Below, one piece after another: positions 17,580 to 40,580 of a stretch of 40,580 nt of DNA (positions within the stretch are counted from its first letter, which is position 1; the number at the start of each line of letters is the position of its first letter). The notes beneath the pieces were generated by a model. That model had not been told where the DNA came from and searched no databases. It saw nothing but the letters and a program-made list of their open reading frames with translations. Both the position numbers and the translations under genes were made by a program. The stretch is from Nanobdellota archaeon (GTDB lineage: Archaea > Nanobdellota > Nanobdellia > SCGC-AAA011-G17 > GW2011-AR17), in contig JAYEMU010000049.1 in assembly GCA_034718475.1 (NCBI GenBank), positions 1-40,580 on the forward strand, in the 5' to 3' direction.

Positions 17580-23208
<5,629 letters not shown>

Positions 23209-27389: not shown

Positions 27390-28346
27390 GTGAAAAAAAG
27401 TTTAAAAATTCTTTTGCTTTTAACAGCAATGAGTATCCCTAGTTGTTCTTCCAGATTTTCTTATGATAGGCCAAACATAAAATATTCATATTATAAACAG
27501 CAAAAGAAATGGTATTATCTGGATTATCATTTTGACTTGAATCCTAAAAAGAAATTAACTGATAATTTCCTCCCCAGAATCCATCCTGCTTATAAACCTA
27601 ACACGATAGAAGTAAATGATACTTCAAAAAATAAATTTACAGCAAAAGCTTTTATGAAACGCAGTATTGATTCAGTAATAGCTAAAAGATATGTTAGAAA
27701 GGGTTTGGAAAAAATACTAAAAAATTATAAAACTGGCAAAATCAAAAAAGGCCATCTTAATTTGGCCAAATCTGCAATTAATTATTTTAGAAAAGATATA
27801 AGTACAGATGCAGGCAAGGGCAAATATTCTTTAAGTACTGAAGGATATAAAACACATAATTTTAATTCCTCAATAAATAAAATGAGTGTTGCATTTCAAA
27901 CAATTGGTGACAGCAGACAGACGTTGTCTGAATTTTTAACAAAGCATAAACCCTATTACTTGGGAGACTGTGATGATTTTGCAATAGCTTTAACTTCTAT
28001 TTACGAAATAATGAGAAATATAAGCCAAAATAAAAAAGGAAAATTTTGGGAAAATTTATCTCTCGAATTAAAAAGGATGCAGATTGCATATACAGTAGAG
28101 GCAAATAGCCGATTTGCTCATGCCATAAATCTTTTAATAATTTATAACAAAGATTTTACAAAAGCAATTGTGAAACCAATTGAACCTCAAGTTTATAAAC
28201 GTAAAAACTTAGAGCAGGAAGTATTGCTTAACAACAAATCCCATTTGTTACATCTAACCAGATATAGGACATCCAAGGGGATATCTGCTGCACAATCAGT
28301 TATTAGATATTATTATAATTCAAAATCCTGTTTTAAACTTAAATAA
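27390..28346 (+). CDS. Lipoprotein with a possible transglutaminase-/papain-like cysteine peptidase core
   Basis: Signal peptide with lipobox 'MSIPSC'. 'YYLGDCDDFAIALTSIY' resembles the Cys motif of transglutaminase-like/BTLCP families (GDCEDYA), followed by 'FAHAINLLI' (His) and 'IEPQ'. The assignment rests on motifs only. Confidence 0.4.
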   Translation: MKKSLKILLLLTAMSIPSCSSRFSYDRPNIKYSYYKQQKKWYYLDYHFDLNPKKKLTDNFLPRIHPAYKPNTIEVNDTSKNKFTAKAFMKRSIDSVIAKRYVRKGLEKILKNYKTGKIKKGHLNLAKSAINYFRKDISTDAGKGKYSLSTEGYKTHNFNSSINKMSVAFQTIGDSRQTLSEFLTKHKPYYLGDCDDFAIALTSIYEIMRNISQNKKGKFWENLSLELKRMQIAYTVEANSRFAHAINLLIIYNKDFTKAIVKPIEPQVYKRKNLEQEVLLNNKSHLLHLTRYRTSKGISAAQSVIRYYYNSKSCFKLK

Positions 28347-29265
28347 TTTTGTATTTAGTACTTATTAATCCCCATTCTACAAACAAGAAGAATATTGCAG
28401 CTGCTAAAAGATATAATGATAAATCTTTTTTAATTGGACTTTGCCTAAAATTGGCAATTGCTAAAAATGCTTCTTTAAGACTTTCTTCATCTGTTGGTTT
28501 AAAATATTGTCCGCCAGTACTATCTGCTATTTCTCTAAGCCCCTCTTCATCTAAGCGGAAAGTAGCAGATATGTCCCCAATTGGTGCCCCTTCTTTAGTG
28601 CCTATACCAATTGTATGCACTACAATTCTATCATCCTTAATGTATTCTAATCCAGATTGGGGAGTAATCCCAACATTATCCTGGCCATCTGTAAGTAAAA
28701 CTATGGCCCTGGGCTTATCAGAATTCATGATATTGGCAGAAGTAATAATCGCCTGCCCAATGTCTGTCCCACCCAACTTTTCAATTTCAACCCCTTTTAT
28801 TGTATTAATTATTTGATTAACATCACTTGTAGGCTGGAGCTGGATATAACTTGCACCAGAAAAAGTAACTAAGCCCATGTCAATATGGCCTGGCAGATTG
28901 TTTGCAAATAACAGCATTGCCTCTTTTGTAGCTTCTAAACGATTAGGCAGATAATCTTCAGCAAGCATACTGCTGGATGCATCCATGGCAATAACTAATT
29001 CAAAATCAGTTGATGTTCCTATATACCACAAAGATGTACCTGCTGCCGCAAAAATTAAAAAAATAACCACAATCAATCTCATTAGCAATAATAAAACATT
29101 TTTGCTTACTATTTCACCACCAGTTATTCTCCGAATGGCATCAAAATTTGCAAATCTCAAAGCCTGTTCTTTGCCATGCTTCAAACTATAAAAATGAATA
29201 AATATCAATAAGGGCAATATCCCTATTACCCAAAGGTATACTGGTTTTGCAAAAACTATCTCCAT
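28339..29265 (-). CDS. Membrane-anchored von Willebrand factor A protein (BatA-like)
   Basis: N-terminal TM helices, MIDAS 'AMDASSSM', 'VLLTDGQDNVG', and a C-terminal TM 'LLAAAIFFLFVEWGLI'. Confidence 0.8.
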   Translation of the reverse strand: MEIVFAKPVYLWVIGILPLLIFIHFYSLKHGKEQALRFANFDAIRRITGGEIVSKNVLLLLMRLIVVIFLIFAAAGTSLWYIGTSTDFELVIAMDASSSMLAEDYLPNRLEATKEAMLLFANNLPGHIDMGLVTFSGASYIQLQPTSDVNQIINTIKGVEIEKLGGTDIGQAIITSANIMNSDKPRAIVLLTDGQDNVGITPQSGLEYIKDDRIVVHTIGIGTKEGAPIGDISATFRLDEEGLREIADSTGGQYFKPTDEESLKEAFLAIANFRQSPIKKDLSLYLLAAAIFFLFVEWGLISTKYKII

Positions 29266-30167
29266 TTTTTTCTTCTTCTCATATCAAAAAATTTGAATAA
29301 TGATTCTAAATAATCCTGATCTGTAGAAAGCTCCATATAATCAATACTATGATCATCAAAAAAAGCAAAAAGATTCTTATCCTGTTTTTTAGTAAAAGAA
29401 CTATATCTTTCCTGTAGCAATGATGAGTCAATAAGTAATCTTTCATGTGTATAAGGATCTTGAACTATTACCTGGCCGACTTTATCAGGCAAACTTTTAT
29501 CTCTTGGATCTCTTACTAGAATGCAGATTAAATCAAACTTAGCAGCCATCAAACGCATTCTATGTTGCCATGCTTTATCTTGTAGCCCATAAAAATCTGA
29601 AATAACAATAACCACAGAACCTTTTTTCTTTATGAAATTTAATGCAAATTTTTCTCCAGCATCGAAATTAAAGCCACCACCATACAAATCAGGGTCAATA
29701 ATTTGATCAGCCATTTGGTAAAAATGTGGCGTCCCTTTATTAGCTTGTGTTATATGCATTACTTGATCAGAAAAAGCAATTAAGCCAACTGCATCTCCTG
29801 CAGAAAGAATTGTATAAGCCATAGCTAAAAGAAATTCTGCAGCATATTCATTTTTTAATTTTTTAGTTGAACCAAATATCATACTTTGGCTAACATCTAA
29901 AAGAAAATAAATTTCTAATTCCCTAACTTCCCTATATTTTTTTACTAAAAGTTTTTTAGTTCTAACTGAAGCTTTCCAATCAATTTCACTTGCATCCAAT
30001 GCAGGATTATAATCCTTAAATCCATCAAATTCTAAGCCACCCCCCTTAAAAAGACTTATATATTCTCCAAGAATTTGAGTTCTGACCAGCCTCTTAGTTA
30101 AAGCTTCAATTTTTTTAACTATGGGGGTTACTTCAACATTCAATCTTCTCTTATTCTGTTTTGCCAT
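29256..30167 (-). CDS. DUF58-family protein (VWA-like partner of MoxR)
   Basis: 'FDGFKDYNPALDASEIDWKASVRTKKLLVKKYREVRELEIYFLLDVSQSM' matches the DUF58 signature (R.Y..GD....IdWkasar...l.vk.....). Confidence 0.8.
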   Translation of the reverse strand: MAKQNKRRLNVEVTPIVKKIEALTKRLVRTQILGEYISLFKGGGLEFDGFKDYNPALDASEIDWKASVRTKKLLVKKYREVRELEIYFLLDVSQSMIFGSTKKLKNEYAAEFLLAMAYTILSAGDAVGLIAFSDQVMHITQANKGTPHFYQMADQIIDPDLYGGGFNFDAGEKFALNFIKKKGSVVIVISDFYGLQDKAWQHRMRLMAAKFDLICILVRDPRDKSLPDKVGQVIVQDPYTHERLLIDSSLLQERYSSFTKKQDKNLFAFFDDHSIDYMELSTDQDYLESLFKFFDMRRRKKWR

Positions 30168-30168
30168 T

Positions 30169-31143
30169 TTAAGGAACAGGCACTCTAGAAAGAATTTCTT
30201 TTATAACCATGTCTGGAGTAATTTTTTCAGCTTCAGCTTCATAAGTCAGCATTAAGCGATGCCTTAAAACATCATAAGCTACGTCCTTTACATGCTGTGG
30301 CGTTACATATTCTTTCCCCTGCAGAAGTGCTTGAGTTTTAGAACCAATAAACATCCCAATTGAAGCCCTTGGAGATCCGCCCCAATCAATATATTTTGCA
30401 TATTTAATATTATATTTGGCTGGATTCCTAGTTGCATCTGTAATTCTTACAATATATTTTTCAATATCCTTATCAAGATAAATTGTTTGAACAAATTTCT
30501 GCAAATCCAAAATTATTTTTGGTGATAATACATGATTTAATTTAAACTCTTCAAATTTTCTTAGGGAGATATTCGTATTGAGAATTTGTTGTTCCTCATC
30601 CATGGATGGATACCCCATTAGCAATTTAAAAAGAAACCTATCAACTTGTGCTTCAGGCAACCTATAAGTCCCCTCTTGTTCAATAGGATTCTGGGTAGCC
30701 ATAACAAAAAAAGGATTTTTCATGGCAAATGTTTCTTTGCCAATTGTTGCTTGTTTTTCCTGCATGGCCTCTAATAAAGCTGATTGAGTTTTTGGAGGGG
30801 CACGATTAATTTCATCTGCTAATATATAATTAGCAAATATTGGTCCCTTAATTGTATAAAATCCCTTGCCCTCTTGATAAGTTTGTAGCCCAATAATATC
30901 AGTAGGCAACAAATCCACAGTAAATTGAACTCTGGCAAATTCACAGCCTGTTACTTTAGCCAAAGTCCTAACCAAAAGGGTTTTAGCAATACCTGGAATA
31001 CCTTCAACCAAAACATGGCCATTTGCCAGAAGGCCTCTTAAAAACCCATCCACTACTTGTTCTTGACCAATAACTGCCTTCCTTACTTCTTTTTTAACAT
31101 CAACCAATAAGTTATGATATTTTTGAAATTTTTTTTGTTCCAT
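30169..31143 (-). CDS. MoxR-family AAA+ ATPase
   Basis: Walker A 'EGIPGIAKT', Walker B 'ILADEINRAPPKTQSALLEAMQE', 'VMATQNP.E.EGTYRLPEAQVDRF', and a C-terminal lid 'GGSPRASI'. Confidence 0.9.
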   Translation of the reverse strand: MEQKKFQKYHNLLVDVKKEVRKAVIGQEQVVDGFLRGLLANGHVLVEGIPGIAKTLLVRTLAKVTGCEFARVQFTVDLLPTDIIGLQTYQEGKGFYTIKGPIFANYILADEINRAPPKTQSALLEAMQEKQATIGKETFAMKNPFFVMATQNPIEQEGTYRLPEAQVDRFLFKLLMGYPSMDEEQQILNTNISLRKFEEFKLNHVLSPKIILDLQKFVQTIYLDKDIEKYIVRITDATRNPAKYNIKYAKYIDWGGSPRASIGMFIGSKTQALLQGKEYVTPQHVKDVAYDVLRHRLMLTYEAEAEKITPDMVIKEILSRVPVP

Positions 31144-31189
31144 ACATTCAATCCTAAGATTTACATCTTTTTATATTTTATTATAAAAA

Positions 31190-34100
31190 TTAAAGCGGCT
31201 TGCTAAACCTCCTTCTTTTAAAATAATACATTATTAACAAAATTGCAAATATCAAAGCTGATAATTCTAAAATAATTGCCTTCCAATTTTCAAATAAGAA
31301 ATTTTTAGCTTTAAAAACAACATCTCCAGGAGTTCTTTTTTTCTTTTCTTCAGCTATAAAATTTTTACAGCCTTCATTGGCCTGATGGACCAATTCAAGC
31401 CCTTGCTTATATTGTTTAAGGGCATACAATTGCTGCGCCTGATCCAATAATTCATTAAGCTCCACGCATTCAGGATTTTGTAAAAATAAATCTCTTGTGA
31501 ATTGTATTTGTTCTTTAAGCTGGGTCTTTAAAGCTGCATCTTTTTCCCTGACATCCACAACAATTTTTGCCTGCTCATGCAACTTCGGCGATTGCACATA
31601 TCCATCTAATAGAATAGTATATCTATCAGGAGTTAGAATCCCTGCAGTTATTTCCAATTCAATTGTTCTGCTCTCTCCAATATTTAACATGCTAAAATCA
31701 CTTTCACTCAAAACTAAAGCCAGCTCAGTTGCATTTGTCTGTGCTAAAAGTTCTATTATATTCAGATTTAGTTCTCCAGTATTATTCAAGACAACCGGAA
31801 CAAGTGTCTTCGCTAAAGGGCTTAATGTCAGGAAAGACGGGACAATAATTTCTAATGCTGGTTTCTTTATGATGGTCTGGGATGAACTTGACATTTGTGT
31901 TTGTGTAATAGTGATAGGTGCAGGCCTTGAAACCTCATCAATGATTAGATAAAATTCATTTGATTCACGGCTGTGGTTCCCATCATTGGCTACCACCACC
32001 AAAGGCACTTCACCAAAAAAATTAGGAAGGGGAGTAAAAGTCATATTATCTATATCCTCATCTACAGTAATAGTAATGTTGGATACATCTGGATCTTTGA
32101 TAATTATATCATCATAATAAGTTTTGGAATTAATCGACAACAAACCAAGACTCAAATCTTTCCTAAGGCTTGGATAGCTTATATTATAAGCAAAATTATA
32201 AGTTTGATCATTTGAAGAGACATAAACTAATGTATTATTTGTTTTATGTTTTACTTTTATCCAATAATCAGAATTTAATGTGATATTGAATGGATAAGTA
32301 GCATTTGTCTGTGTTGATGAACCCGCTGTAACATTCCTCCAATATGTTTTATTGTTCGAAGCATTCAGGAATATTTGCTGTCCATATAAGCAAGAGCCAA
32401 TAGATTGTATGCACAGGCCAGCACTGCCTGTAGTTAAAAACCTTAACTTAACCTTATATTCTGTTATGTCTGTATAGTTTTTACTTTTATAGATGGAATA
32501 GAATGCATCAGAATTATCCAATTGAACATATTTAAGATTATTGCTGATATTGACAATTCCCCAATCACCAGAATCATTCAACCAAGAATCCCCAACTGTA
32601 ATATTGCTCATGTTTGTAAATGTTTCCTTTAATGAATATTCAAACCACGAATAAGTCAGATTTTCATCATCAATATCATAAAAATAAGTACTCAAATTAA
32701 TGCCTCTGTCTTCATCTTGGTCCCAGCCGTCTGTAATGTTAGGTATATCCGAATACATAAAAGGCGGTGCATTCAAGTCAAAGATAGTTACATTCCAATA
32801 ATACCTAACTTCTAAATTATTAGAATCATTAAGAACCAAAGTAATGTTAATTTCACCAGCTTCATAAAAGCTAATATTATAATTCCAAGTTGAAGCATAT
32901 GCCACACCATTAGCAGCGCTCTTATTTAATGTACCATTTATATACCAATTGTAACTAAATATTTCAGATGGGGGATCAGCACAGGTAACCGTGAATTTTC
33001 CTATAGAGGTATTTTCAGTAGCATTGAAATGTTTAGGCGGTATATGGTTGCCTAAAATATCATGCAAAAAGATAGTGCAAGCCGGAGCAGTATCTGTATA
33101 TATCGAAAAATTGACTATTTGGGAATCAAACTGGTTTAAGGAATCATTGACAGAAATATTGACCCAATGTGTTCCTTCATCAAGTGCATTAGGAGTGAAA
33201 GAGATTTTGCCAGTTGTAAGATTTATTTCAAACAAAGATGTATTATCATGATATGTAATGTTATCATTTTCTTCATCTGTCGCAATAACTGTATAAGTAT
33301 ATGCTGCATTAACCGTAAGCTCTTGGGGTTCAATATAAGTTAAGTTTGGGGGATCATTTACACTTGAAATATTAAAATATATTACAATACTAACAACCTC
33401 ATAAGTGTTATCATAAACAGTTATATTAATTGAATAATTGCCCACATCATCTTGGACTGGGGTAAAGTTAACAATTGTTGTTGCTACATCATTTACAGTT
33501 GAAATATTGCTTTCATTTAATTGAAAAAAGGAATAGTTTGCCCTAAACCACAAATAAGATCCAGCATCTTTATCTGTAGCATTTATTATACAGCTAAAAG
33601 GCACATCTTCAGTAGCATTTCTTTCATTATCGCAAACATATTCAAGAACTGGGGGAAAAGCAGCATCAGTTATATTTATAACAAAAACTTGCGAATCCAT
33701 TAAACCTGAAGTATCATTAACAGTTATATTTATGCGGTAAGTTCCATTAGATGTTGCCCCCGGTGTAAAGCAGACTACACCAGTTACAGGATTGATATTA
33801 AATAATGAAGAATTGTCTGAAAAACGCAAATATTCAGAAGTTCCGGGTATGGCCAAATCCTCATCATCAGCAGTGACAGTAAAAGTTAATTCTTGGCCCT
33901 CATTTGTCGAATAATTTAAGATAAAATCCAAAATAGGAGTATCATTTACATTATAAATTGTAAAATTGAGGTTAAAGTAATTAACAGCACCTTTTGAATC
34001 AGTAATATTTATTTTCACCCAATTTTCACCGACATAGCTATCATTCGCAGTAAAGTTAAGGATGCCTGTTGTTTCATTAATATTAAACAATGTTGTATTA

Positions 34101-36379
34101 TCTGTAAACGTAAAACTATCCCCATCTGCATCTGAAGTATTTTTGGACATGTTCAATATAAACTCATCGCCATCTGTAATATTAAAATTAAATAAGCCAG
34201 TATACAAGGGCAAGGCATTTGCAAAAACTGTGAAATTCAAAACTGTGGAATTAACATTTAAAGATGAATCATTCACAGAAATATTGACCCAATGGGTTCC
34301 AACCACTGTAGCATTTGGAGTAAAAATAATCATTCCATTATTAAAATTTATATCAAACAATGAAGTATTATCATAATAATATAAAGTCTCACCAAACTGT
34401 GTATATACATCATCATCAGTTGCACTCATATTCAAAGTGAATGTTGCATTAACATAAGCTGAAAAATTATCTGAAAAATTATTAAACTTTGGGAGATCCT
34501 CAACATTAGTTACTGAAAAATTAATTAACACAGAATCTTTTAAGCCTCCGCTATCTGTTACAGTAATATTTATCCAATGGGCATAAACTGAGTTATCCTG
34601 GGGTATAAAATTAACTAAGCAACTAGTATTGCCATTAGAAACTGAAACGCCTGCACAGCTAAAATTGAACCATGAATAATTGGCTGAATAAGTATGGGTA
34701 TCACCAACATCAATATCAGAAGTATTTAGATGGCATGAAAAGAACACATCTTCTGCCTGCTCCAATTCATTATCGCAAGCATAAAATAAATTTGGCGGAT
34801 CATTTTGTTGGTTTACAGTTAAAACCAAATTAGAGGATGTTGTTGCATTGGGATCATTTGAATCTGTTACATTTATCTCAATAACATGGACTCCAACTTC
34901 TGCATTTGTTGGAAGAAAGCTTATGGAACCATTGGTATCATTTATGTCAAATAAAGTGGAATTATCACCAAAAAACAATAAGCCAAACCCAGTGCCTGAA
35001 CCTGAGCTGATACTCCCATTTTCCTCATCATTTGCATTGACATAAAAACTGCATAAAGAATCTTCTGTACAGGTTGGTGTTAAAGAGGAGGTAATAGTGG
35101 GATAATCATTAACAGCAGAAATTTCATAAGGCACTTTAACTGAAGAAGAGGTTAATGCTCCGCCATCTGTTACAGTTGCAGTAAAATAATGGCTGCCTGC
35201 CAAGCTTGAAGAAGTGCATTCTACAGTTACTTCCCCTGTAGTTGAATCAATAGACAAACAATCATTGAATTCTGTTGAAGAAGCATTGAATATTGCAAAA
35301 TTACTTAATGGCAAATCATTAGAATCATCATCTGAAAAGTTTGCACTTAAATTATAAAGGCAGGCAGAATCTTCAATGCAAGATTGGGACGGCGCTGTAG
35401 AACCTGAACCTAATAATTGATAAGGAGCAGTATTGCTTATTACAAAAGAATCTGTTAAATTCAAGGTTTCGTGAGTGCTGTTTGTACAATTGACTTCAAA
35501 AGTAAAAGTGCCCCACCTATCAAAAGAGGTATTAAATTCATATAGCTTTGTAGTGGCACTATAGTTCATTTGTGAAAATGGAGTATAAGAGCCAGTATAA
35601 TCAAAACGGATTGAACAATTGCCTATTATAGGCCCAAAAGAAGTATTTGAATAATTCGCATAAAAATTAACAACATAACTTCCAACACCCTTGTAGGGAA
35701 CCCCTTCCTTATTTTGCGTCCTGTTACTATACTTTGAACCTGAATCAGTATCATCCCAAATTGAAATATTTGTGTATGCGCCTGCCCCATAAGCACTAAA
35801 ATGATCAACATTAAAACTAACTGTATTTTCATTATCCTCAAAAGGAATATCTGTTTTTACCCAATCTTCACAAGTTTTAGTTAATGCATCATAATTGGCA
35901 CAATAAAAAATAGCATCAATTGGTCCTTTCTTTTCTAGAATAATATTTGCAATTTTTATATTTAAATTGTCTACAAAAACAACATCTGATTTAATAATCT
36001 TCTCTTGAGGTTTATTCACTTCCAAATTTATCTTTAAAGGTGGATCTTCAATCCCAGAAATATGTACAAAATTATTTCCATCTACAATGTTCAGTTTATA
36101 AGAATCACCATCTTTAAAAAGGACCCTTCCAAGATTATTTATAACTCCATTTTTTTGTAGCGTAACAACACTTGCTCCAGTCATTGAATATTCTCTGAAT
36201 GCCCCACAAAATAAAATAAAAGCAATTAAGAAAAATACTAATATCTTCCAAGTTTGAGGCTTATCCTTTGCTTGACCTAAATAGACATTTCTTACCTTGC
36301 CGTCATTATCTCTTACAGACTTATAAAGATAAGGCCCATAAACTTTATCTCCCCTTTTAATATATCTTTTATGTACCAT
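31190..36379 (-). CDS. Giant (1729 aa) N-glycosylation-sequon-rich surface protein with tandem cadherin-like (CADG-type) repeats and a ConA/LamG-like domain, bounded by an N-terminal signal-anchor and a C-terminal TM helix
   Basis: The N-terminus 'KRGDKVYGPYLYKSVRDNDGKVRNVYLG' is followed by TM 'ILVFFLIAFILFCGAF'. At least 8 repeats fit the pattern 'F.DN[ST]SLF.IN..TG.I.F.P......G.H.VNI.V.D[ST]'. A LamG-like block lies at about nt 32100-32600 ('GDWGIVN...YVQLDN......YYDDIIIKD'). The C-terminal TM 'IILELSALIFAILLIMYYF' is followed by 'KRRR'. Confidence 0.75.
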   Translation of the reverse strand: MVHKRYIKRGDKVYGPYLYKSVRDNDGKVRNVYLGQAKDKPQTWKILVFFLIAFILFCGAFREYSMTGASVVTLQKNGVINNLGRVLFKDGDSYKLNIVDGNNFVHISGIEDPPLKINLEVNKPQEKIIKSDVVFVDNLNIKIANIILEKKGPIDAIFYCANYDALTKTCEDWVKTDIPFEDNENTVSFNVDHFSAYGAGAYTNISIWDDTDSGSKYSNRTQNKEGVPYKGVGSYVVNFYANYSNTSFGPIIGNCSIRFDYTGSYTPFSQMNYSATTKLYEFNTSFDRWGTFTFEVNCTNSTHETLNLTDSFVISNTAPYQLLGSGSTAPSQSCIEDSACLYNLSANFSDDDSNDLPLSNFAIFNASSTEFNDCLSIDSTTGEVTVECTSSSLAGSHYFTATVTDGGALTSSSVKVPYEISAVNDYPTITSSLTPTCTEDSLCSFYVNANDEENGSISSGSGTGFGLLFFGDNSTLFDINDTNGSISFLPTNAEVGVHVIEINVTDSNDPNATTSSNLVLTVNQQNDPPNLFYACDNELEQAEDVFFSCHLNTSDIDVGDTHTYSANYSWFNFSCAGVSVSNGNTSCLVNFIPQDNSVYAHWINITVTDSGGLKDSVLINFSVTNVEDLPKFNNFSDNFSAYVNATFTLNMSATDDDVYTQFGETLYYYDNTSLFDINFNNGMIIFTPNATVVGTHWVNISVNDSSLNVNSTVLNFTVFANALPLYTGLFNFNITDGDEFILNMSKNTSDADGDSFTFTDNTTLFNINETTGILNFTANDSYVGENWVKINITDSKGAVNYFNLNFTIYNVNDTPILDFILNYSTNEGQELTFTVTADDEDLAIPGTSEYLRFSDNSSLFNINPVTGVVCFTPGATSNGTYRINITVNDTSGLMDSQVFVINITDAAFPPVLEYVCDNERNATEDVPFSCIINATDKDAGSYLWFRANYSFFQLNESNISTVNDVATTIVNFTPVQDDVGNYSINITVYDNTYEVVSIVIYFNISSVNDPPNLTYIEPQELTVNAAYTYTVIATDEENDNITYHDNTSLFEINLTTGKISFTPNALDEGTHWVNISVNDSLNQFDSQIVNFSIYTDTAPACTIFLHDILGNHIPPKHFNATENTSIGKFTVTCADPPSEIFSYNWYINGTLNKSAANGVAYASTWNYNISFYEAGEINITLVLNDSNNLEVRYYWNVTIFDLNAPPFMYSDIPNITDGWDQDEDRGINLSTYFYDIDDENLTYSWFEYSLKETFTNMSNITVGDSWLNDSGDWGIVNISNNLKYVQLDNSDAFYSIYKSKNYTDITEYKVKLRFLTTGSAGLCIQSIGSCLYGQQIFLNASNNKTYWRNVTAGSSTQTNATYPFNITLNSDYWIKVKHKTNNTLVYVSSNDQTYNFAYNISYPSLRKDLSLGLLSINSKTYYDDIIIKDPDVSNITITVDEDIDNMTFTPLPNFFGEVPLVVVANDGNHSRESNEFYLIIDEVSRPAPITITQTQMSSSSQTIIKKPALEIIVPSFLTLSPLAKTLVPVVLNNTGELNLNIIELLAQTNATELALVLSESDFSMLNIGESRTIELEITAGILTPDRYTILLDGYVQSPKLHEQAKIVVDVREKDAALKTQLKEQIQFTRDLFLQNPECVELNELLDQAQQLYALKQYKQGLELVHQANEGCKNFIAEEKKKRTPGDVVFKAKNFLFENWKAIILELSALIFAILLIMYYFKRRRFSKPL
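32770..35400 (-). repeat. Tandem array of diverged ~105-125-codon cadherin-like repeat units inside the giant gene
   Basis: Repeat-unit DNA is still recognisable. The segment starting at 33144 ('tcattgacagaaatattgacccaatg...') matches the one at 34269 ('tcattcacagaaatattgacccaatg...') over roughly 110 nt. The antisense shadow ORFs at 32991-33251 and 34062-34376 end in near-identical peptides for the same reason. Confidence 0.7.
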
Positions 36380-36428
36380 TCATACCCCTTTTAAATGTAG
36401 TACAACTTATTAATTTAGAAGAAAAGAG

Positions 36429-36441
36429 GTTATATAAAACT
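36429..36441 (-). promoter_or_regulatory. Internal TATA promoter plus Shine-Dalgarno leader for the giant gene
   Basis: The minus strand reads 'gttttatataacc' about 50 nt upstream of ATG 36379, and 'aaaggggt' lies 5-7 nt before the ATG. Confidence 0.35.
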
Positions 36442-36447
36442 TTCTGC

Positions 36448-38415
36448 TTAAAATTTGATTTTTTTCTTAATATCCCCTGGCAGCCCAAGGTATATTTCTT
36501 TTGCTTTATTATAAAGTTTCTTGGCTTTAACTACATTCCCTCTTTTCATTAAAGATTTTGATCTGGCTAAAAGGCTTTTGATTTTATAAATCCTAAAAGG
36601 TATTTTTATATTGGTAATTAAGGCAAATGCCCCCTGTAAATGTATATGCCTCCCAAATCTGATTAATGAAAGGATGACCAAGGAAATAATAAACCAAAAA
36701 AGCCAATATTTATTTAATTTAACAAAACCTTCTTTACTAAAAACCAGTTTAGAAATTTTTGCAGGCTCTCTCACTTCCTTGCATGCAAAGCAAGGTCCGC
36801 CACAATCAATCCCTTTTTCACCTTGATTTTGGACCAGATCATCACATGTAGGGCAGGGTTTGCATATGCCCCCGCAATCAACCAATACTTCATTTTGATT
36901 CTGAACACCGTCAAAACAGCTTGGTATGGCTACATATTTGCATGATTGTGATTCCTCAGGCTTATTCCTCAAAGTGCCGCATTTATGAAGATCTTCACAT
37001 TCTCGAGTTTGTATTCCCATTGGAGAACATATGCTCCAATCAGAACATATCCATAATTCAATACATCTAATAGTAATTACGCCTGGCGAAGATGCTATCC
37101 CTGAAAGTTTTGGAGCAGGTATTGTAGGTACAGGCGGCGCAGTCAAGGTAACTATCCATGATTCAGCATCATCCAAAGCACCATCAGTAATTCTAACTGT
37201 AAGATTATGCTCCCCTAAGGCATAGGCTTGAGTTGACCATGTAAAATTATCAGATGTAAGATTCATATCCACATCATCAATAAGCCATTTTGTTGAAGGG
37301 ATTGTACCATCAACATCTTCCTTGGTAATATTAAACTCCTTAGATAATCCCTTTTGCAAACTAAACTGCTTAGTTATTGGATAATAAGAGGTTATATTTG
37401 GGGCATGATTAAAATATGTAACTGTAAAGCTTATGACTTCTGAATCTAATGTGCCATTTGTATCATTAACAGTAATATTTATGCTATATGTGCCATTCCA
37501 CAAGTCAAAATCAGTAAAATTAAGGGTTAAATTCATTTGAACATAATTATTCACTGTAGCATTCGGTCCAGACATGTTAAAGAACCAAGAAGTATTTGAA
37601 GCAAATGTTAAATTCTCATTTGCATCTACATCATAAGCAGAGATATTAAGCTTAAAAGTATGATTAACATAAGCAGTTTGGGCCCCTATTGTTTCTAAAA
37701 CTGGCGCATCATTAACATTTCTTATCTGAAAAATAATATCCTGATCATCAATATATTGCCTGTCAGAAACAGTTATTTTAACTGAATGATTGCCAACATC
37801 ATTATTATTTGGAATAAAAGCAATGATTCCTGTATTTAAGCCAATATTAAATAAAGAGGTATTATCATAAAATAACAAAGGGTCGCCATCTGGATCTGAA
37901 GCATTATTTGAAACATCAAATATGAATAAGACATCTTCAACAAGATTTGTAAAATTCGAACTTAGATTTAGAATTGGTGCATAATTCGACCTGTTTATCG
38001 TCAAATTAAATAGCATGTAATCATCATATTCATTGCATTGAAGATTGCTGACTGTAATATTTATCACATAAGCAGCCACATCACCTAATACTGGCATAAA
38101 GCTAATTTTACCAGTTGATTCATTAATAGCAAACAAATCAGAATCATCTGTATAATTCAATACACTATATGATGCATCATTAGTGACATTTATATCAACA
38201 TTATAAACTATACCCACATATGCCTTTTGATCAGATAATTGCACCAATTCTATCCATTGGTCAAGGCATAATTCAATATTTCCAGTAGGCTTGCCAGTCA
38301 ACTTTTCAAAAGTGGTTCCAGAGGGTTCCAAGAAAATAAATGAGAAAATAACTAGGGTATACAAATTAATTAAAATTATCAATCCTATAAGCCAAAGTTT
38401 TTTATTTATTTTCAT
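36448..38415 (-). CDS. 655-aa surface protein, a paralogue of the giant protein: cadherin-like repeats, a Cys-rich module, a TM helix and a short basic cytoplasmic tail
   Basis: N-terminal TM/signal 'LWLIGLIILINLYTLVIFSFIF'. Repeats include 'YTDDSDLFAINESTGKISFMP...YVINITVSN' and 'FYDNTSLFNIGLNTGIIAFIPNNNDVGNHSVKITVSD'. Cys-rich module 'CFDGVQNQNEVLVDCGGICKPC' and 'CDDLVQNQGEKGIDCGGPCFAC'. TM 'YWLFWFIISLVILSLI'. Confidence 0.7.
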   Translation of the reverse strand: MKINKKLWLIGLIILINLYTLVIFSFIFLEPSGTTFEKLTGKPTGNIELCLDQWIELVQLSDQKAYVGIVYNVDINVTNDASYSVLNYTDDSDLFAINESTGKISFMPVLGDVAAYVINITVSNLQCNEYDDYMLFNLTINRSNYAPILNLSSNFTNLVEDVLFIFDVSNNASDPDGDPLLFYDNTSLFNIGLNTGIIAFIPNNNDVGNHSVKITVSDRQYIDDQDIIFQIRNVNDAPVLETIGAQTAYVNHTFKLNISAYDVDANENLTFASNTSWFFNMSGPNATVNNYVQMNLTLNFTDFDLWNGTYSINITVNDTNGTLDSEVISFTVTYFNHAPNITSYYPITKQFSLQKGLSKEFNITKEDVDGTIPSTKWLIDDVDMNLTSDNFTWSTQAYALGEHNLTVRITDGALDDAESWIVTLTAPPVPTIPAPKLSGIASSPGVITIRCIELWICSDWSICSPMGIQTRECEDLHKCGTLRNKPEESQSCKYVAIPSCFDGVQNQNEVLVDCGGICKPCPTCDDLVQNQGEKGIDCGGPCFACKEVREPAKISKLVFSKEGFVKLNKYWLFWFIISLVILSLIRFGRHIHLQGAFALITNIKIPFRIYKIKSLLARSKSLMKRGNVVKAKKLYNKAKEIYLGLPGDIKKKIKF

Positions 38416-38417
38416 TA

Positions 38418-38831
38418 TTATTCTCTTTTTAAAACTACTTTCAATTTCCCAGTATAATTGCCATAAGCCATATCTTTAGGCACTCCTGCCGAAATACTAA
38501 CTTCCTTTTTTTCTAAAGGTGCTAAAACAAAATTATTAGCAGATAAGGAAACATAATTAGCCAAAATTCCTGATGTGGACATCTTAACAACAATAGGGAA
38601 ATCGTAATCATTTGTTAAATAAAATATTCTCGAAGAGCCTCCCCCTGGCTGCACTCTCCCAAAGCGAATCATATCCACTCCAACATCAATCCCAATTTTA
38701 TTGCCAACTAAAAGCATCATTGGAAATTCTTCAATATCTAATATTGTATAAAAAAAGTAAGCATGGGATATTACAGCCAAAGTTAAAAAGAAGACTATAA
38801 CCAATATCAAAATGGTTTTATTTTTTTTCAT
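38418..38831 (-). CDS. Small membrane-anchored beta-sandwich-like protein (137 aa), hypothetical
   Basis: N-terminal TM 'ILILVIVFFLTLAVI', then the pattern 'G..SRIFYLTND.DFPIVV......F.LAPLEKKEVSISAGVP.....G.YTGKLKV'. This resembles single-domain Ig/CARDB-like folds. Only 2 nt separate it from the next gene. Confidence 0.45.
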   Translation of the reverse strand: MKKNKTILILVIVFFLTLAVISHAYFFYTILDIEEFPMMLLVGNKIGIDVGVDMIRFGRVQPGGGSSRIFYLTNDYDFPIVVKMSTSGILANYVSLSANNFVLAPLEKKEVSISAGVPKDMAYGNYTGKLKVVLKRE

Positions 38832-39987
38832 CTTTCTTTTCCCTCTTTTTATAAAATATTACAATCAAATCTATTGCTACTAGCAATGCAATTATAACAA
38901 TTAATGTAATTGGGCTTAAAATTATTTTTTTGGCAGTGTTCAAAAATGTATTAAAGTTTGACTTTGTAGCATCCAATAAATAATAGTCCCATATAGCTGA
39001 AGACTTTTTGCCTTCATAATTAATAGTAATGTTGGCATGATATTTTCCACCGCTATATTCTTTAGCATTCCAAAACCCTTCCAAAATCGTTTCTTCCCAA
39101 GGTTTTAAATCAACACTAACACTTTTAAATTCTCCAGCATCAACACCGGAATCATTTGTCATTTTTATTTCAGCAAAAACATTAGTTATCTTATCCCCCC
39201 ACCAGCTTTGCACTTTCACATCAAAAGGATTTATTTCATTAACTGAACCATTTTTAGATGCCTCGATAAACTTTACTAATTTTTTCCCAACTAAAAATTT
39301 TGTTTCAGCTATAGCTGGTTTGTCCCCGCCATAATCAAATTCTATATAAGCTTTATATTCTGCAGAGTCTATATCAGAAGTCCCCCACAAACTAAAAAAT
39401 TCTTTATTCTGAAATGGCACTATTGAATCAGTATTTGTAAATATTATATCAATCAATTTCTCATTAACATCTAAAATTTGAATAGGCAGCCTTACATTAA
39501 TTAGCTCTTCATCCCCTTTGTTGATTACTGATGCCTTGAACAATATAGGCTCTCCTTTGTTTACATTGTCAGCTAATAAATTAATTTCTGCATACTTCCC
39601 AGGGTAGGGCACATTAATAAATATTTGGCCACCTACAGAAGTTTTTGTACCAATCCCATAATGTGCATTTTCAGTCTTTTCAAGAAACTTTATTCCACAT
39701 TTATTTATGCCTGGATTGTCCATTTTCTCTGGAAATGTTAAAGTAACATAAGCAATATGAAACTCTTCTTGAGCCTCAATTGCATTAACCTTTATTATGT
39801 CTGGACAACTCACTTCAGCCTCAATGTTGGAATAGCCATAAAGTTTGAAAGTGAAATCATATTCTGAATTAGGATAAAAATTGAATACTTTTTTTGCAGG
39901 GCTGATTCCAGTAGCAAAAACTAGATTTAAAGAAAATGAAAAAATAATTATAATAATAAAAAATTTTGCAATATTATTTTTATTCAT
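38818..39987 (-). CDS. Secreted protein (389 aa) with CARDB/S-layer-like beta-sandwich domains and a C-terminal TM anchor
   Basis: Sec signal 'FIIIIIFSFSLNLVFA'. CARDB-like 'EINLLADNVNKGEPILFKASVINKGDEELINVRLPIQI'. C-terminal TM 'ITLIVIIALLVAIDLIVIF' plus 'YKKREKKDEKK'. SD 'gggaga' precedes the ATG. Confidence 0.5.
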   Translation of the reverse strand: MNKNNIAKFFIIIIIFSFSLNLVFATGISPAKKVFNFYPNSEYDFTFKLYGYSNIEAEVSCPDIIKVNAIEAQEEFHIAYVTLTFPEKMDNPGINKCGIKFLEKTENAHYGIGTKTSVGGQIFINVPYPGKYAEINLLADNVNKGEPILFKASVINKGDEELINVRLPIQILDVNEKLIDIIFTNTDSIVPFQNKEFFSLWGTSDIDSAEYKAYIEFDYGGDKPAIAETKFLVGKKLVKFIEASKNGSVNEINPFDVKVQSWWGDKITNVFAEIKMTNDSGVDAGEFKSVSVDLKPWEETILEGFWNAKEYSGGKYHANITINYEGKKSSAIWDYYLLDATKSNFNTFLNTAKKIILSPITLIVIIALLVAIDLIVIFYKKREKKDEKK

Positions 39988-40032
39988 CTTAATCTCCCAA
40001 CTAAGCCACCATTATCTCTCAAGAGATAATAT

Positions 40033-40580
40033 TTAAGATGCCAAAGTTGCAAAAGCAAACCAAATGTCATCCAAAGTTCTTGCAGGGGCATTTTGAGGGA
40101 TATGAAGCTTAAAAGTTATGTTTATATCATTGCTGCCATCAGTATAATTCAATTTTTTGCACAAGACTTTGCCTATGTCATTGCCATTTTCACCTAAATA
40201 ATTAGAGCTTGTCAAGTTTACAAAAGTATTATAAATAATATCAGCACCAGTAAAATTATAATCCTCACAAGTAACATTTACATCATTAGAAACATTAGAC
40301 CATTTCCAAGCATAGCCTGGTTCAGTGCCGCCAATCATGCTGCTGCTCCAATTCCTATTTGACAAATTCACTTCAGCATATTCATTCCCAATATTTTCAA
40401 GCAATAAGCCATGGACAATCCCCGGCGTATTAAAGCTGGCACAACCTGCAGTATCTTCAGCAGTTTCCCCTGTTGACAAGACACAAGCACTTGCACCTGA
40501 TTTAACATATCCACTGCCAAAACTAACATTATCCATTGTAAAATTAATTATTAATTGTGAAGTTATAGTAAGATTAACTG
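40033..40580 (-). CDS. Partial (5'-truncated by the window edge) secreted, sequon-rich protein; first visible gene of the surface operon
   Basis: The reading frame stays open upstream of the tracked Met ('VNLTITSQLIINFTMDNVSFGSGYV...') to the window end. There are many N-x-S/T sites ('NLSNRNWSS', 'NVSNDVNVT', 'NYTDGSNDINIT'). No family recognised. Confidence 0.5.
   Translation of the reverse strand, partial: VNLTITSQLIINFTMDNVSFGSGYVKSGASACVLSTGETAEDTAGCASFNTPGIVHGLLLENIGNEYAEVNLSNRNWSSSMIGGTEPGYAWKWSNVSNDVNVTCEDYNFTGADIIYNTFVNLTSSNYLGENGNDIGKVLCKKLNYTDGSNDINITFKLHIPQNAPARTLDDIWFAFATLAS

What the first reader, a model, noticed from the sequence alone, without database searches (positions are those of the whole stretch)
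28339..40580. Eight-gene operon linking cadherin-repeat giant surface proteins and small beta-sandwich proteins to a MoxR-DUF58-VWA module
All eight ORFs are on the minus strand with gaps from -14 to +68 nt. Internal starts carry Shine-Dalgarno sequences or overlap the preceding stop. The order is: edge ORF, 389-aa CARDB-like anchor protein, 137-aa anchored beta-sandwich, 655-aa adhesin, 1729-aa adhesin, MoxR AAA+ ATPase, DUF58, and TM-anchored VWA (BatA-like). MoxR-DUF58-VWA/Bat triads are known as chaperone-like modules whose substrates are poorly defined. I do not know of one described as hard-wired to giant adhesins. In a probable small-genome episymbiotic archaeon, this is a plausible dedicated assembly and attachment apparatus, with the AAA+/VWA part maturing or tensioning the surface fibres. 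That function is inference.
Basis: partly seen in the sequence, partly recalled or inferred. Interest (0 to 1): 0.78.

Follow-up and report, generated by a model that had tools for sequence, protein, structure and literature searches.

The report
Archaeal surface-protein cluster with MoxR module
A tiny uncultured archaeon keeps the genes for its large sugar-coated surface proteins next to a three-gene ATPase/VWA "helper" module, and the pairing recurs in dozens of related archaea, so the helper very probably serves these surface proteins; similar pairings have already been predicted in other archaea and bacteria.

Summary
Eight co-directional minus-strand ORFs lie at 28339-40580 with gaps of -14 to +68 nt. 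They end in MoxR (AAA_3), DUF58 and a BatA-type membrane VWA protein. The contig is a Nanoarchaeota/Woesearchaeota (DPANN) MAG.

The last ~225 residues of the 1729-aa protein form an uncatalogued module, "Cmod": a CARDB-like beta-sandwich, a three-helix bundle with two invariant Cys, and a TM anchor. A metagenome scan with its motif gave 27 loci. In 24 of the 26 with downstream DNA, MoxR-DUF58-VWA follows on the same strand. The gap is often only 1-8 nt. From the MoxR side, 7 of 9 loci carry a Cmod giant protein next to the triad. One has the accessory genes convergent and one has nothing.

The upstream genes are usually co-conserved too (a three-Ig anchored protein, a small PapD/ASH-like protein, a Cys-rich large protein).

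- The BatA VWA domain is predicted to be extracellular, not cytoplasmic.
- "Cadherin" is only Big_9/tandem-95 Ig repeats.
- The operon probably starts beyond the window edge.
- "Adhesin" cannot be told apart from a surface coat.

The idea is not unprecedented. Makarova et al. 2015 predicted MoxR+vWA+Ig-like S-layer clusters in euryarchaea. Bifidobacteria have the PFNA cluster, and Bat operons exist. I rate this a new variant of a known kind. The mechanism is inferred.

The parts
28339..29265 (-). BatA-type membrane VWA protein (308 aa). Two N-terminal TM helices (BatA domain), a VWA domain with MIDAS motif DASSS at residue 95, and a C-terminal TM helix. The VWA domain is predicted to face outside.
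   Evidence: Pfam VWA_2 2.5e-21 and BatA 5e-10. NCBIfam VWA_BatA_Lepto 2.8e-28, below its cut-off. TM scan. The K/R-rich TM1-TM2 loop and the DxSxS motif are conserved in 25 of 25 homologues.
29256..30167 (-). DUF58 protein (303 aa). Soluble VWA-like protein with DVSQS at residue 91 and no TM helix or signal peptide. Presumed cytoplasmic adaptor of MoxR.
   Evidence: Pfam DUF58 4.9e-40 and VWA_2 1.8e-11. No hydrophobic segment. Motif located.
30169..31143 (-). MoxR-proper AAA+ ATPase (324 aa). Walker A GIPGIAKT, Walker B ILADE.
   Evidence: Pfam AAA_3 1e-59 and AAA_lid_2 4.8e-16. Source name 'MoxR family ATPase [Nanoarchaeota archaeon]'. Motifs seen.
31190..31867 (-). Cmod, the conserved C-terminal module of the 1729-aa protein (about residues 1505-1729). 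It comprises a CARDB-like beta-sandwich, a three-helix bundle carrying the NPxCxEL motif and a second invariant Cys, a TM helix and a basic tail. This is the part that tracks with MoxR across genomes.
   Evidence: Alignments A1 and A4. AF2 model with pLDDT 92. Foldseek gives generic Ig-like hits only. No Pfam hit for the window copy, and weak CARDB hits in 5 of 30 members. The profile matches 1085 representative clusters.
31190..36379 (-). Giant surface glycoprotein (1729 aa). Order of features: a 43-aa cytoplasmic N-terminal motif, a TM helix, Big_9/tandem-95 Ig-like repeats with NDxP linkers, a region shared with relatives, then Cmod. It carries 95 N-glycosylation sequons.
   Evidence: Sequons: 95 observed against 32 +/- 4.9 expected. 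Linker motifs.
36448..38415 (-). Second large surface protein (655 aa). Signal/TM helix, Big_9 repeats, a Cys-rich region with DCGGxCxxC repeats, a TM helix and a basic tail of about 70 aa resembling TPR.
   Evidence: The Cys-rich region is conserved upstream in 17 of 18 loci that have at least 8 kb of upstream DNA.
38418..38831 (-). 137-aa protein anchored by an N-terminal TM helix, with one ASH/PapD-like Ig beta-sandwich. The fold is indicated only by weak sequence hits.
   Evidence: Pfam PG_0320-like_C 0.0025 and ASH 0.021. A profile of its homologues against PDB sequences gives FAP65 at 0.0014. Homologues lie in the same position in L002, L006-8, L018, L025, L030, L034 and L036.
38818..39987 (-). 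389-aa surface protein with an N-terminal signal/TM helix, three tandem Ig-like beta-sandwich domains and a C-terminal TM anchor. The family has no database annotation.
   Evidence: 29 homologues, none with a Pfam domain. AF2 model with pLDDT 88.7. Foldseek gives generic Ig/MG/FN3 hits. One to three copies lie upstream in 14 of 18 loci.
40033..40580 (-). 3' part of a gene cut by the window edge. The full-length homologue in L006 is 233 aa with an N-terminal TM anchor. The product is rich in sequons (11 observed against 3.8 expected).
   Evidence: Homologues occur in L006, L008, L011, L016 and L018. No Pfam or PDB sequence hit.

Best explanation
This is a lineage-wide DPANN (Woesearchaeota/Nanoarchaeota) cell-surface gene cluster.

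It encodes a set of membrane-anchored extracellular Ig-fold proteins, some of them heavily N-glycosylated. The set comprises two large repeat proteins and several small ones.

It also encodes a Bat-type MoxR-DUF58-BatA module that serves these proteins.

Proposed mechanism, inferred by analogy with other MoxR/VWA pairs such as CbbQ-CbbO, NorQ-NorD and RavA-ViaA:
- The cytoplasmic MoxR hexamer works through the soluble VWA-like DUF58 adaptor.
- The membrane protein BatA presents its MIDAS-bearing VWA domain outside the cell.
- There the VWA domain docks onto the conserved juxtamembrane Cmod stalk of the giant protein, which holds nearly invariant acidic residues in NPxCxELxE.
- ATP-driven remodelling then helps to assemble, metal-load or maintain the surface complex.

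Shown here: gene content, predicted folds, predicted topology and conserved linkage.

Inferred: physical contact, the role of ATP, and whether the surface proteins act in attachment or as a coat.
For: Linkage from the Cmod side. A motif scan that took no account of MoxR returned 27 loci. In 24 of the 26 with at least 1.5 kb of downstream DNA, MoxR-DUF58-VWA lies within 1.5 kb on the same strand. This holds down to 25% Cmod identity and 52% MoxR identity.

Translational-coupling distances. In at least 9 distant loci the gap is 1-8 nt, several with a ggtga SD.

Linkage from the MoxR side. The Cmod protein is adjacent in L001-3, L033, L035 and L036. In L037 it lies downstream of BatA. In L034 the accessory genes are convergent with the triad. 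Adjacency that survives rearrangement argues for a functional link.

Extracellular nature of the large proteins. Signal or TM helices are present. Sequons are enriched threefold: 95 against 32, and 28 against 7.7.

BatA topology. The K/R-rich loop and the MIDAS motif are conserved in 25 of 25 homologues. The homologue BB0173 has a periplasmic VWA domain by experiment (PMC5700661).

Precedents for MoxR+vWA with Ig-like surface proteins: PMC5898192 and PMC8430577.
Against: The association is not absolute. L038 has the triad alone. L020 has a Cmod protein with no triad within 10 kb. In L010 the two are separated by a 9.4-kb NAD-salvage insertion.

In the window's own subclade the 46-nt gap before MoxR carries oligo-T and a conserved TATA-like motif, so the triad may have its own promoter.

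Bat mutants in Leptospira had no envelope or morphology phenotype (PMC3557215), so the general function of Bat modules remains obscure.

How a cytoplasmic AAA+ ATPase would act on an extracellular VWA domain or client is not explained.
Confidence: 0.55

Rival explanations
1. The cluster is a dedicated export or insertion system. This is the 'novel secretion or membrane-remodelling complex' reading of Makarova et al. 2015. MoxR would supply energy, and the small TM-anchored Ig proteins plus BatA would form a membrane platform that translocates or inserts the giant glycoproteins.
For: The euryarchaeal clusters that combine MoxR, vWA and Ig-like S-layer-type proteins were interpreted in this way. 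Most components here are membrane or extracellular proteins. The client proteins are very large, 1200-2300 aa.
Against: DUF4350/arCOG01314, the signature component of that system, is absent from all eight proteins and from the called genes of the related loci. No polytopic channel-like protein is present. The large proteins carry ordinary Sec-type signal or anchor sequences. No MoxR ATPase is known to drive translocation.
Confidence: 0.15
2. The triad is a general envelope or stress-homeostasis module, Bat-like in function. It sits beside the surface-protein genes only because both are envelope-related and co-regulated. There is no specific client relationship.
For: MoxR-DUF58-VWA triads are very widespread and occur next to many different genes (established knowledge; PMC5898192). 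L038 has the triad alone. A possible internal promoter precedes MoxR in the window.
Against: MoxR follows Cmod in 24 of 26 loci, with 1-8 nt coupling in many. Adjacency is kept after inversion (L034) and reordering (L037) across deep divergence. Conservation of this kind is hard to explain without specific function.
Confidence: 0.2
3. The cluster is an integrin-like signalling or attachment device for host contact. The giant proteins would bind the host cell, and the extracellular VWA domain together with the cytoplasmic AAA+ ATPase would transmit or regulate adhesion (inside-out or outside-in).
For: Extracellular MIDAS VWA domain. Rapidly diverging repeat ectodomains contrast with a conserved stalk: 25-57% identity for the ectodomains against 52-84% for MoxR. 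The 1729-aa and 655-aa proteins carry cytoplasmic extensions. VWA adhesins exist in bacteria.
Against: Nothing in the data addresses host contact. The lifestyle of this MAG is unknown. No kinase or other signalling component lies in the cluster.
Confidence: 0.1

Closest known systems
Euryarchaeal arCOG01314 (DUF4350)-MoxR-vWA-Ig-like S-layer protein neighbourhood, predicted to be a secretion or membrane-remodelling complex (Makarova, Galperin, Koonin 2015, PMC5898192)
   Same: Both are archaeal. Both combine a COG0714 MoxR ATPase and a DUF58/vWA protein with several membrane-anchored or secreted proteins that have Ig-like ectodomains. In both the function is predicted only.
   Different: No DUF4350/arCOG01314 protein and no pfam07760 (DUF1616) protein was detected here. 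This cluster instead has a BatA-type TM VWA protein, the Cmod-bearing giant glycoprotein, the Cys-rich large protein, and the 389-aa and 137-aa families. The lineage is DPANN, not Euryarchaeota.
Bacteroides/Leptospira/Borrelia Bat (aerotolerance) operon: MoxR-DUF58-BatA-BatB-BatC-BatD-BatE
   Same: The MoxR-DUF58-BatA core is the same. The BatA N-terminal double-TM domain and MIDAS VWA are present. The VWA domain faces outside, as shown experimentally for BB0173 (PMC5700661). Exported or membrane-anchored partner proteins are encoded alongside the core.
   Different: No BatB, BatC, BatE or BatD family match was found. The partners are giant Ig-repeat glycoproteins encoded upstream rather than TPR/SH3 proteins encoded downstream. 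The host is an archaeon with no periplasm or outer membrane.
Bifidobacterial PFNA cluster: pkb2-fn3-MoxR(aaa-atp)-duf58-tgm (PMC8430577)
   Same: The gene for a large secreted beta-sandwich (FN3) glycoprotein lies immediately upstream of MoxR-DUF58 in a conserved order. MoxR has been proposed as the chaperone of that surface protein.
   Different: The third gene there is a transglutaminase-like membrane protein, not BatA. A Ser/Thr kinase is part of that cluster and is absent here. The domain types differ (FN3 there, Big_9/CARDB-like here). That cluster is bacterial.

Membership tests
MoxR-proper (MRP) AAA+ ATPase with its DUF58/VWA partners | AAA_3 ATPase domain with Walker A and B motifs and an AAA lid | tested here: met
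   AAA_3 1e-59 (cut-off 27 bits, score 200.6) and AAA_lid_2 4.8e-16. GIPGIAKT and ILADE are present.
MoxR-proper (MRP) AAA+ ATPase with its DUF58/VWA partners | A DUF58 gene immediately downstream, followed by a VWA protein | tested here: met
   DUF58 4.9e-40 with a 1-nt gap after MoxR. VWA_2 2.5e-21 overlapping DUF58 by 10 nt.
Bat (Bacteroides aerotolerance-type) operon | BatA: N-terminal double-TM 'aerotolerance regulator' domain plus a MIDAS VWA domain | tested here: met
   PF07584 BatA 5e-10 (40.1 bits against a cut-off of 25.9). DxSxS motif present. The NCBIfam BatA_Lepto model scores well below its cut-off (98.9 against 380), so this protein is not an orthologue of the Leptospira protein.
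Bat (Bacteroides aerotolerance-type) operon | BatB, BatC and BatE (VWA-TPR, TPR and SH3 proteins) and BatD | tested here: not met
   No BatD match, and no second VWA-TPR or SH3 protein, in the eight proteins or their pieces. The only related signal is a weak TPR_2 hit (0.024) in the 655-aa tail.
arCOG01314-associated predicted secretion/remodelling complex (Makarova 2015) | arCOG01314 / DUF4350 membrane-anchored flavodoxin-like protein | tested here: not met
   No DUF4350 (PF14258) hit in any cluster protein at E<=1, nor among the called genes of L033-L038.
arCOG01314-associated predicted secretion/remodelling complex (Makarova 2015) | MoxR + vWA genes together with membrane or S-layer-type proteins that have Ig-like ectodomains | tested here: met
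.
Cadherin-repeat adhesins | Cadherin or bacterial cadherin-like domain match above the family threshold | tested here: not met
   Cadherin_4 reaches only 18.6 bits against a cut-off of 25.1, and only in the 655-aa protein. The repeats match Big_9 and tandem-95 instead. NDxP linker motifs are present.
Cadherin-repeat adhesins | Demonstrated adhesive function or Ca2+ binding | not testable with these tools
   No experimental data exist.
CARDB-domain surface proteins | CARDB domain match | tested here: inconclusive
The Cmod beta-sandwich gives weak CARDB hits in 5 of 30 family members (best 4.4e-5) but none in the window copy.

The most novel reading that the evidence does not exclude
Cmod is the specific extracellular docking site for the MIDAS VWA domain of BatA. 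The MoxR-DUF58-BatA triad is then a transmembrane, ATP-driven machine that controls the conformation or assembly of giant surface glycoproteins in DPANN archaea. That would be an archaeal integrin-like inside-out system used for host attachment. It would also name the first defined client of a Bat-type MoxR module.
Probability: 0.15. Interest if true: 0.8.

Novelty: new variant of a known kind. Interest (0 to 1): 0.55.

Why it matters
The clients of MoxR-DUF58-VWA (Bat-type) modules are essentially unknown, although these modules occur throughout bacteria and archaea.

In these DPANN lineages the module is tied to one recognisable protein module, Cmod, often with only 1-8 nt between the genes. 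That gives a concrete and testable client hypothesis, with a defined candidate interface between the extracellular BatA VWA/MIDAS domain and the Cmod stalk.

The work also defines an uncatalogued C-terminal anchor domain found in about 1000 protein clusters, and two further unannotated surface-protein families. These are likely to make up a large part of the cell surface of Woesearchaeota-type archaea. Their surface biology, and any host attachment, is otherwise inaccessible because they are uncultured.

Tried and rejected
- Pfam at E<=1 and NCBIfam on the 389-aa, 137-aa and edge proteins, and on pieces of the two large proteins, found no informative family.
- PADLOC found no defence-system match for any component, so a conflict-system reading (MoxR-vWA ternary systems) was dropped. 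The bpMoxR hit is far weaker than the AAA_3 hit.
- Foldseek against the PDB returned only generic Ig/MG/FN3/ASH sandwiches for the 389-aa model and the Cmod model, with no functional lead.
- Profile searches of the edge family and the 137-aa family against PDB sequences found nothing for the first and only weak ASH-like hits for the second.
- A word-based homologue search with Cmod found only 4 proteins. The exhaustive profile search was needed to see the family.
- A cluster-member look-up for taxonomy of Cmod representatives gave almost no names, only one 'Candidatus Woesearchaeota'.
- The genome-contig scan with MoxR returned only 3 loci.
- A class III (type IV pilin-like) signal peptide on the small proteins was considered and rejected by eye. 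There is no K/R-G/A cleavage motif.
- The sigma-70 promoter scan is uninformative for an archaeon.
- Literature searches for MoxR with Woesearchaeota or DPANN, and for DPANN with von Willebrand, found no prior description of this cluster in the searchable library.


Full report
**1. Observation**

The region 28339-40580 holds eight co-directional minus-strand ORFs exactly as described. The gaps are -10, +1, +46, +68, +2, -14 and +45 nt.

Pfam assigns the three promoter-distal genes as follows:
- a BatA-type VWA protein (BatA N-domain 5e-10, VWA_2 2.5e-21);
- DUF58 (4.9e-40);
- a MoxR-proper AAA+ ATPase (AAA_3 1e-59, AAA_lid_2 4.8e-16).

The 1729-aa and 655-aa proteins match Big_9 (4.6e-22 and 1.2e-9) and the NCBIfam 'tandem-95 repeat'. 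Cadherin_4 stays below its threshold. 'Cadherin-repeat' is therefore a resemblance, supported by eight [NE][DE]xP linker motifs, and not a membership.

The edge ORF has no in-frame stop before the window end. Its full-length homologue in the closest long relative, L006, is 233 aa with an N-terminal TM helix. Another small TM ORF precedes it there. The unit is therefore probably 9-10 genes.

Clear SD-like motifs precede three genes. The others rely on overlap or abutment, or have weak motifs.

**2. Source organism**

The window is a complete 40,580-bp NCBI contig named 'MAG: Nanoarchaeota archaeon'. The best genome relatives are Woesearchaeota and Nanoarchaeota MAGs.

A diphthamide synthase gene, GC content near 31%, and a GyrB gene with an intein are present. 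Diphthamide synthesis fits an archaeon (my own knowledge). The DPANN assignment is supported. An episymbiotic lifestyle is only assumed.

**3. Anatomy of the proteins**

*The 1729-aa protein.*
- It starts with a 43-residue basic N-terminal segment (HKRYIKRGDKVYGPYLYKSVRDNDGKVRNVYLG), followed by a TM helix.
- A long ectodomain follows, with Ig-like repeats and 95 N-glycosylation sequons. Shuffling predicts 32 +/- 4.9.
- It ends in a conserved C-terminal module that I call Cmod.

*Cmod.*
- A 30-sequence alignment gives an AF2 model with pLDDT 92. The model shows one beta-sandwich, a three-helix bundle, a short helix and a TM helix.
- Two Cys are invariant, and an NPxCxELxE motif is nearly invariant.
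- The window copy hits no Pfam family. Five of 30 members hit CARDB weakly.
- Foldseek finds only generic Ig-like sandwiches.
- An exhaustive profile search found 1085 representative clusters at E<=1e-3, of which 697 reach 1e-10. Among the listed hits the module almost always lies at the extreme C-terminus, in proteins of about 100-6400 residues (shortest entries fragments).

*The 655-aa protein.* It has Big_9 repeats, a Cys-rich region with DCGGxCxxC repeats that matches no family, a TM helix and a basic tail of about 70 residues that weakly resembles TPR.

*The 389-aa protein.* Its model (pLDDT 88.7) shows three tandem Ig-like sandwiches between an N-terminal signal/TM helix and a C-terminal TM anchor. 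Its 29 homologues carry no annotation.

*The 137-aa protein.* It is anchored by an N-terminal TM helix and gives weak ASH/PapD-like Ig signals.

*MoxR, DUF58 and BatA.*
- MoxR and DUF58 have no hydrophobic segments.
- BatA has TM helices at about residues 3-24, 56-80 and 282-300.
- In 25 of 25 homologues the loop between TM1 and TM2 carries 5-10 K/R residues. The VWA domain is acidic in 23 of 25, and the C-terminal tail is basic in 24 of 25 (the truncated L033 copy has no tail).
- The DxSxS MIDAS motif is conserved in all 25.
- By the positive-inside rule the VWA domain lies outside the cell. This matches the experimentally determined topology of the BatA-like Borrelia protein BB0173 (PMC5700661).

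**4. Is the linkage conserved?**

*From the Cmod side.* A metagenome scan with the Cmod motif, which takes no account of MoxR, returned 27 loci. A tblastn map of all components shows that 24 of the 26 loci with at least 1.5 kb downstream carry MoxR, DUF58 and the VWA protein immediately downstream on the same strand. This holds down to 25% Cmod identity and 52% MoxR identity.

Three pairs of loci are near-duplicates, so roughly 21 of 23 independent loci show the pattern.

The exceptions are:
- L010, where a 9.4-kb insertion sits between the two. It holds a NAD-salvage operon and a DnaJ gene.
- L020, which has no triad within 10 kb.

In at least nine distant loci the Cmod stop and the MoxR ATG are 1-8 nt apart, several with a ggtga SD. 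That implies co-transcription and translational coupling.

Two further short contigs found through Cmod homologues also show Cmod followed by MoxR.

*From the MoxR side.* Nine loci were examined, three from genomes and six from look-ups of proteins with 62-71% identity.
- Six have the Cmod giant gene directly upstream (L001-3, L033, L035, L036).
- L037 has it downstream of BatA.
- L034 lacks Cmod, but homologues of the 389-aa, 137-aa and Cys-rich proteins lie convergent and immediately after BatA.
- L038 has the triad alone.

*Upstream genes.* Among 18 loci with at least 8 kb of upstream DNA:
- 17 have the Cys-rich large protein;
- 14 have one to three copies of the 389-aa family;
- 7 have detectable 137-aa homologues;
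- 7 have detectable edge-family homologues.

The last two families are short and divergent, so these counts are lower bounds.

Adjacency that survives deep divergence, inversion and reordering is strong evidence of a functional link.

**5. One transcript?**

This is uncertain for the window itself. The 68-nt gap before the 1729-aa gene holds AAAGTTTTATATAA, a good archaeal BRE/TATA look-alike. The 46-nt gap before MoxR begins with T5 and holds TATA-like motifs.

A similar motif is conserved at that position in the close relatives L001 and L006-L008. The triad may therefore also have its own promoter in this subclade. In more distant lineages the genes are tightly coupled.

**6. Mechanism**

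*Shown.* The cluster encodes a set of membrane-anchored extracellular Ig-fold proteins, some of them heavily glycosylated. Next to them lie a cytoplasmic AAA+ ATPase, a soluble VWA-like DUF58 protein and a membrane protein with an outward-facing MIDAS VWA domain. The gene linkage is conserved.

*Inferred.* In other MoxR/VWA pairs (CbbQ-CbbO, NorQ-NorD, RavA-ViaA, CoxD-CoxE; established knowledge) the VWA partner docks on the client through its MIDAS site, and the ATPase remodels or metal-loads the client.

By analogy, I propose that the triad assembles or maintains the surface complex. The BatA VWA domain would dock on the Cmod stalk. This is the only part of the fast-evolving giant protein that is conserved and tracks with MoxR. 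It carries nearly invariant acidic residues.

DUF58 and MoxR would act from the cytoplasmic side, through the BatA loop or through the cytoplasmic tails of the surface proteins. How energy would cross the membrane is unexplained.

I give about 0.8 to some specific functional link. I give 0.55 to the assembly/maintenance reading as a whole.

The rival readings are set out separately with their evidence. They are a dedicated secretion platform, a mere envelope-stress neighbour, and an integrin-like attachment device.

**7. Comparison with what is known**

Three known systems are close.

*Euryarchaeal arCOG01314 neighbourhood.* Makarova, Galperin and Koonin (2015) described archaeal neighbourhoods that combine a COG0714 MoxR ATPase, a vWA protein (arCOG02742/02747) and several Ig-like membrane or S-layer-type proteins around arCOG01314/DUF4350. 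They predicted a secretion or membrane-remodelling complex. The present cluster shares the logic. It lacks DUF4350 and pfam07760 proteins, and it has BatA, Cmod and other families instead.

*Bifidobacterial PFNA cluster.* This cluster (pkb2-fn3-MoxR-duf58-tgm) places a large secreted FN3 glycoprotein gene directly upstream of MoxR-DUF58.

*Bat operons.* They share the MoxR-DUF58-BatA core and exported partners. BatB, BatC, BatD and BatE are not found here.

Even so, no paper in the searchable library describes this DPANN variant or the Cmod domain.

**8. Verdict**

The finding is real and well conserved. It is best classed as a new variant of a known kind. It has a useful handle, Cmod, for naming a client of a Bat-type MoxR module.

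Interest is moderate at 0.55. A specialist would not be very surprised by MoxR/VWA next to surface proteins. The tightness of the Cmod-MoxR coupling and the size of the unannotated families do, however, make an old open question directly testable: what do MoxR-DUF58-VWA modules act on?

Noticed in passing
window 20005-23187 (-), with GyrA at 17580-20012 (-): GyrB carries an intein (Intein_splicing across residues 435-857) inserted before the Toprim domain. The gyrB and gyrA genes overlap by 8 nt.
   Followed up: no
window 4863-6980 (+): A single 705-aa ORF fuses an asparagine-synthase-like GATase/PP-loop enzyme with a diphthamide synthase domain (Diphthami_syn_2, 8.6e-65).
   Followed up: no
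window 8658-12876 (+): A bacterial-type MutS/MutL mismatch-repair pair with overlapping genes lies on this DPANN contig.
   Followed up: no
window 36250-36379 (-): N-terminus of the 1729-aa protein: A 43-residue basic cytoplasmic motif, HKRYIKRGDKVYGPYLYKSVRDNDGKVRNVYLG, precedes the TM helix. It is conserved only in the closest relatives (L007, L008, L010, P0034, P0035). More distant family members have an ordinary signal peptide.
   Followed up: partly
window 36700-37130 (-): residues ~430-560 of the 655-aa protein: A Cys-rich region with repeated DCGGxCxxC motifs has no Pfam or NCBIfam match. It is conserved in 17 of 18 related loci.
   Followed up: partly
window 27390-28346 (+): A 318-aa protein with a lipoprotein-like N-terminus has no Pfam match. 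It converges on the BatA gene and overlaps its end by 8 nt. The same neighbour, together with the Metallophos gene, is syntenic in L001 and L006.
   Followed up: no
L010 10697-19766: A 9.4-kb block lies between the Cmod giant gene and MoxR, breaking the otherwise conserved adjacency. It holds NrtR, a NAD kinase-like gene, ADP-ribosylglycohydrolase, a radical SAM gene, NadE and NAPRTase on the minus strand, and a DnaJ-domain gene on the plus strand.
   Followed up: partly
L033 3614-4675 and 13121-20436: DDE transposase fragments lie inside the surface-protein cluster, and the giant gene appears split there. A T2SSE/T2SSF (type IV pilus-like) locus lies on the opposite strand just downstream of BatA.
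   Followed up: no
L002 4856-5350, L025 5076-5570, L030 6552-7046: A 164-aa gene overlaps the start of the Cmod giant gene in one subclade. It may be a dedicated regulator. The HTH_23 hit (2.1e-8) was tested on the L002 copy only.
   Followed up: partly
L037 13338-20300: In this locus the Cmod-bearing giant protein (2320 aa, Laminin_G_3 domains) is encoded downstream of BatA instead of upstream of MoxR.
   Followed up: partly
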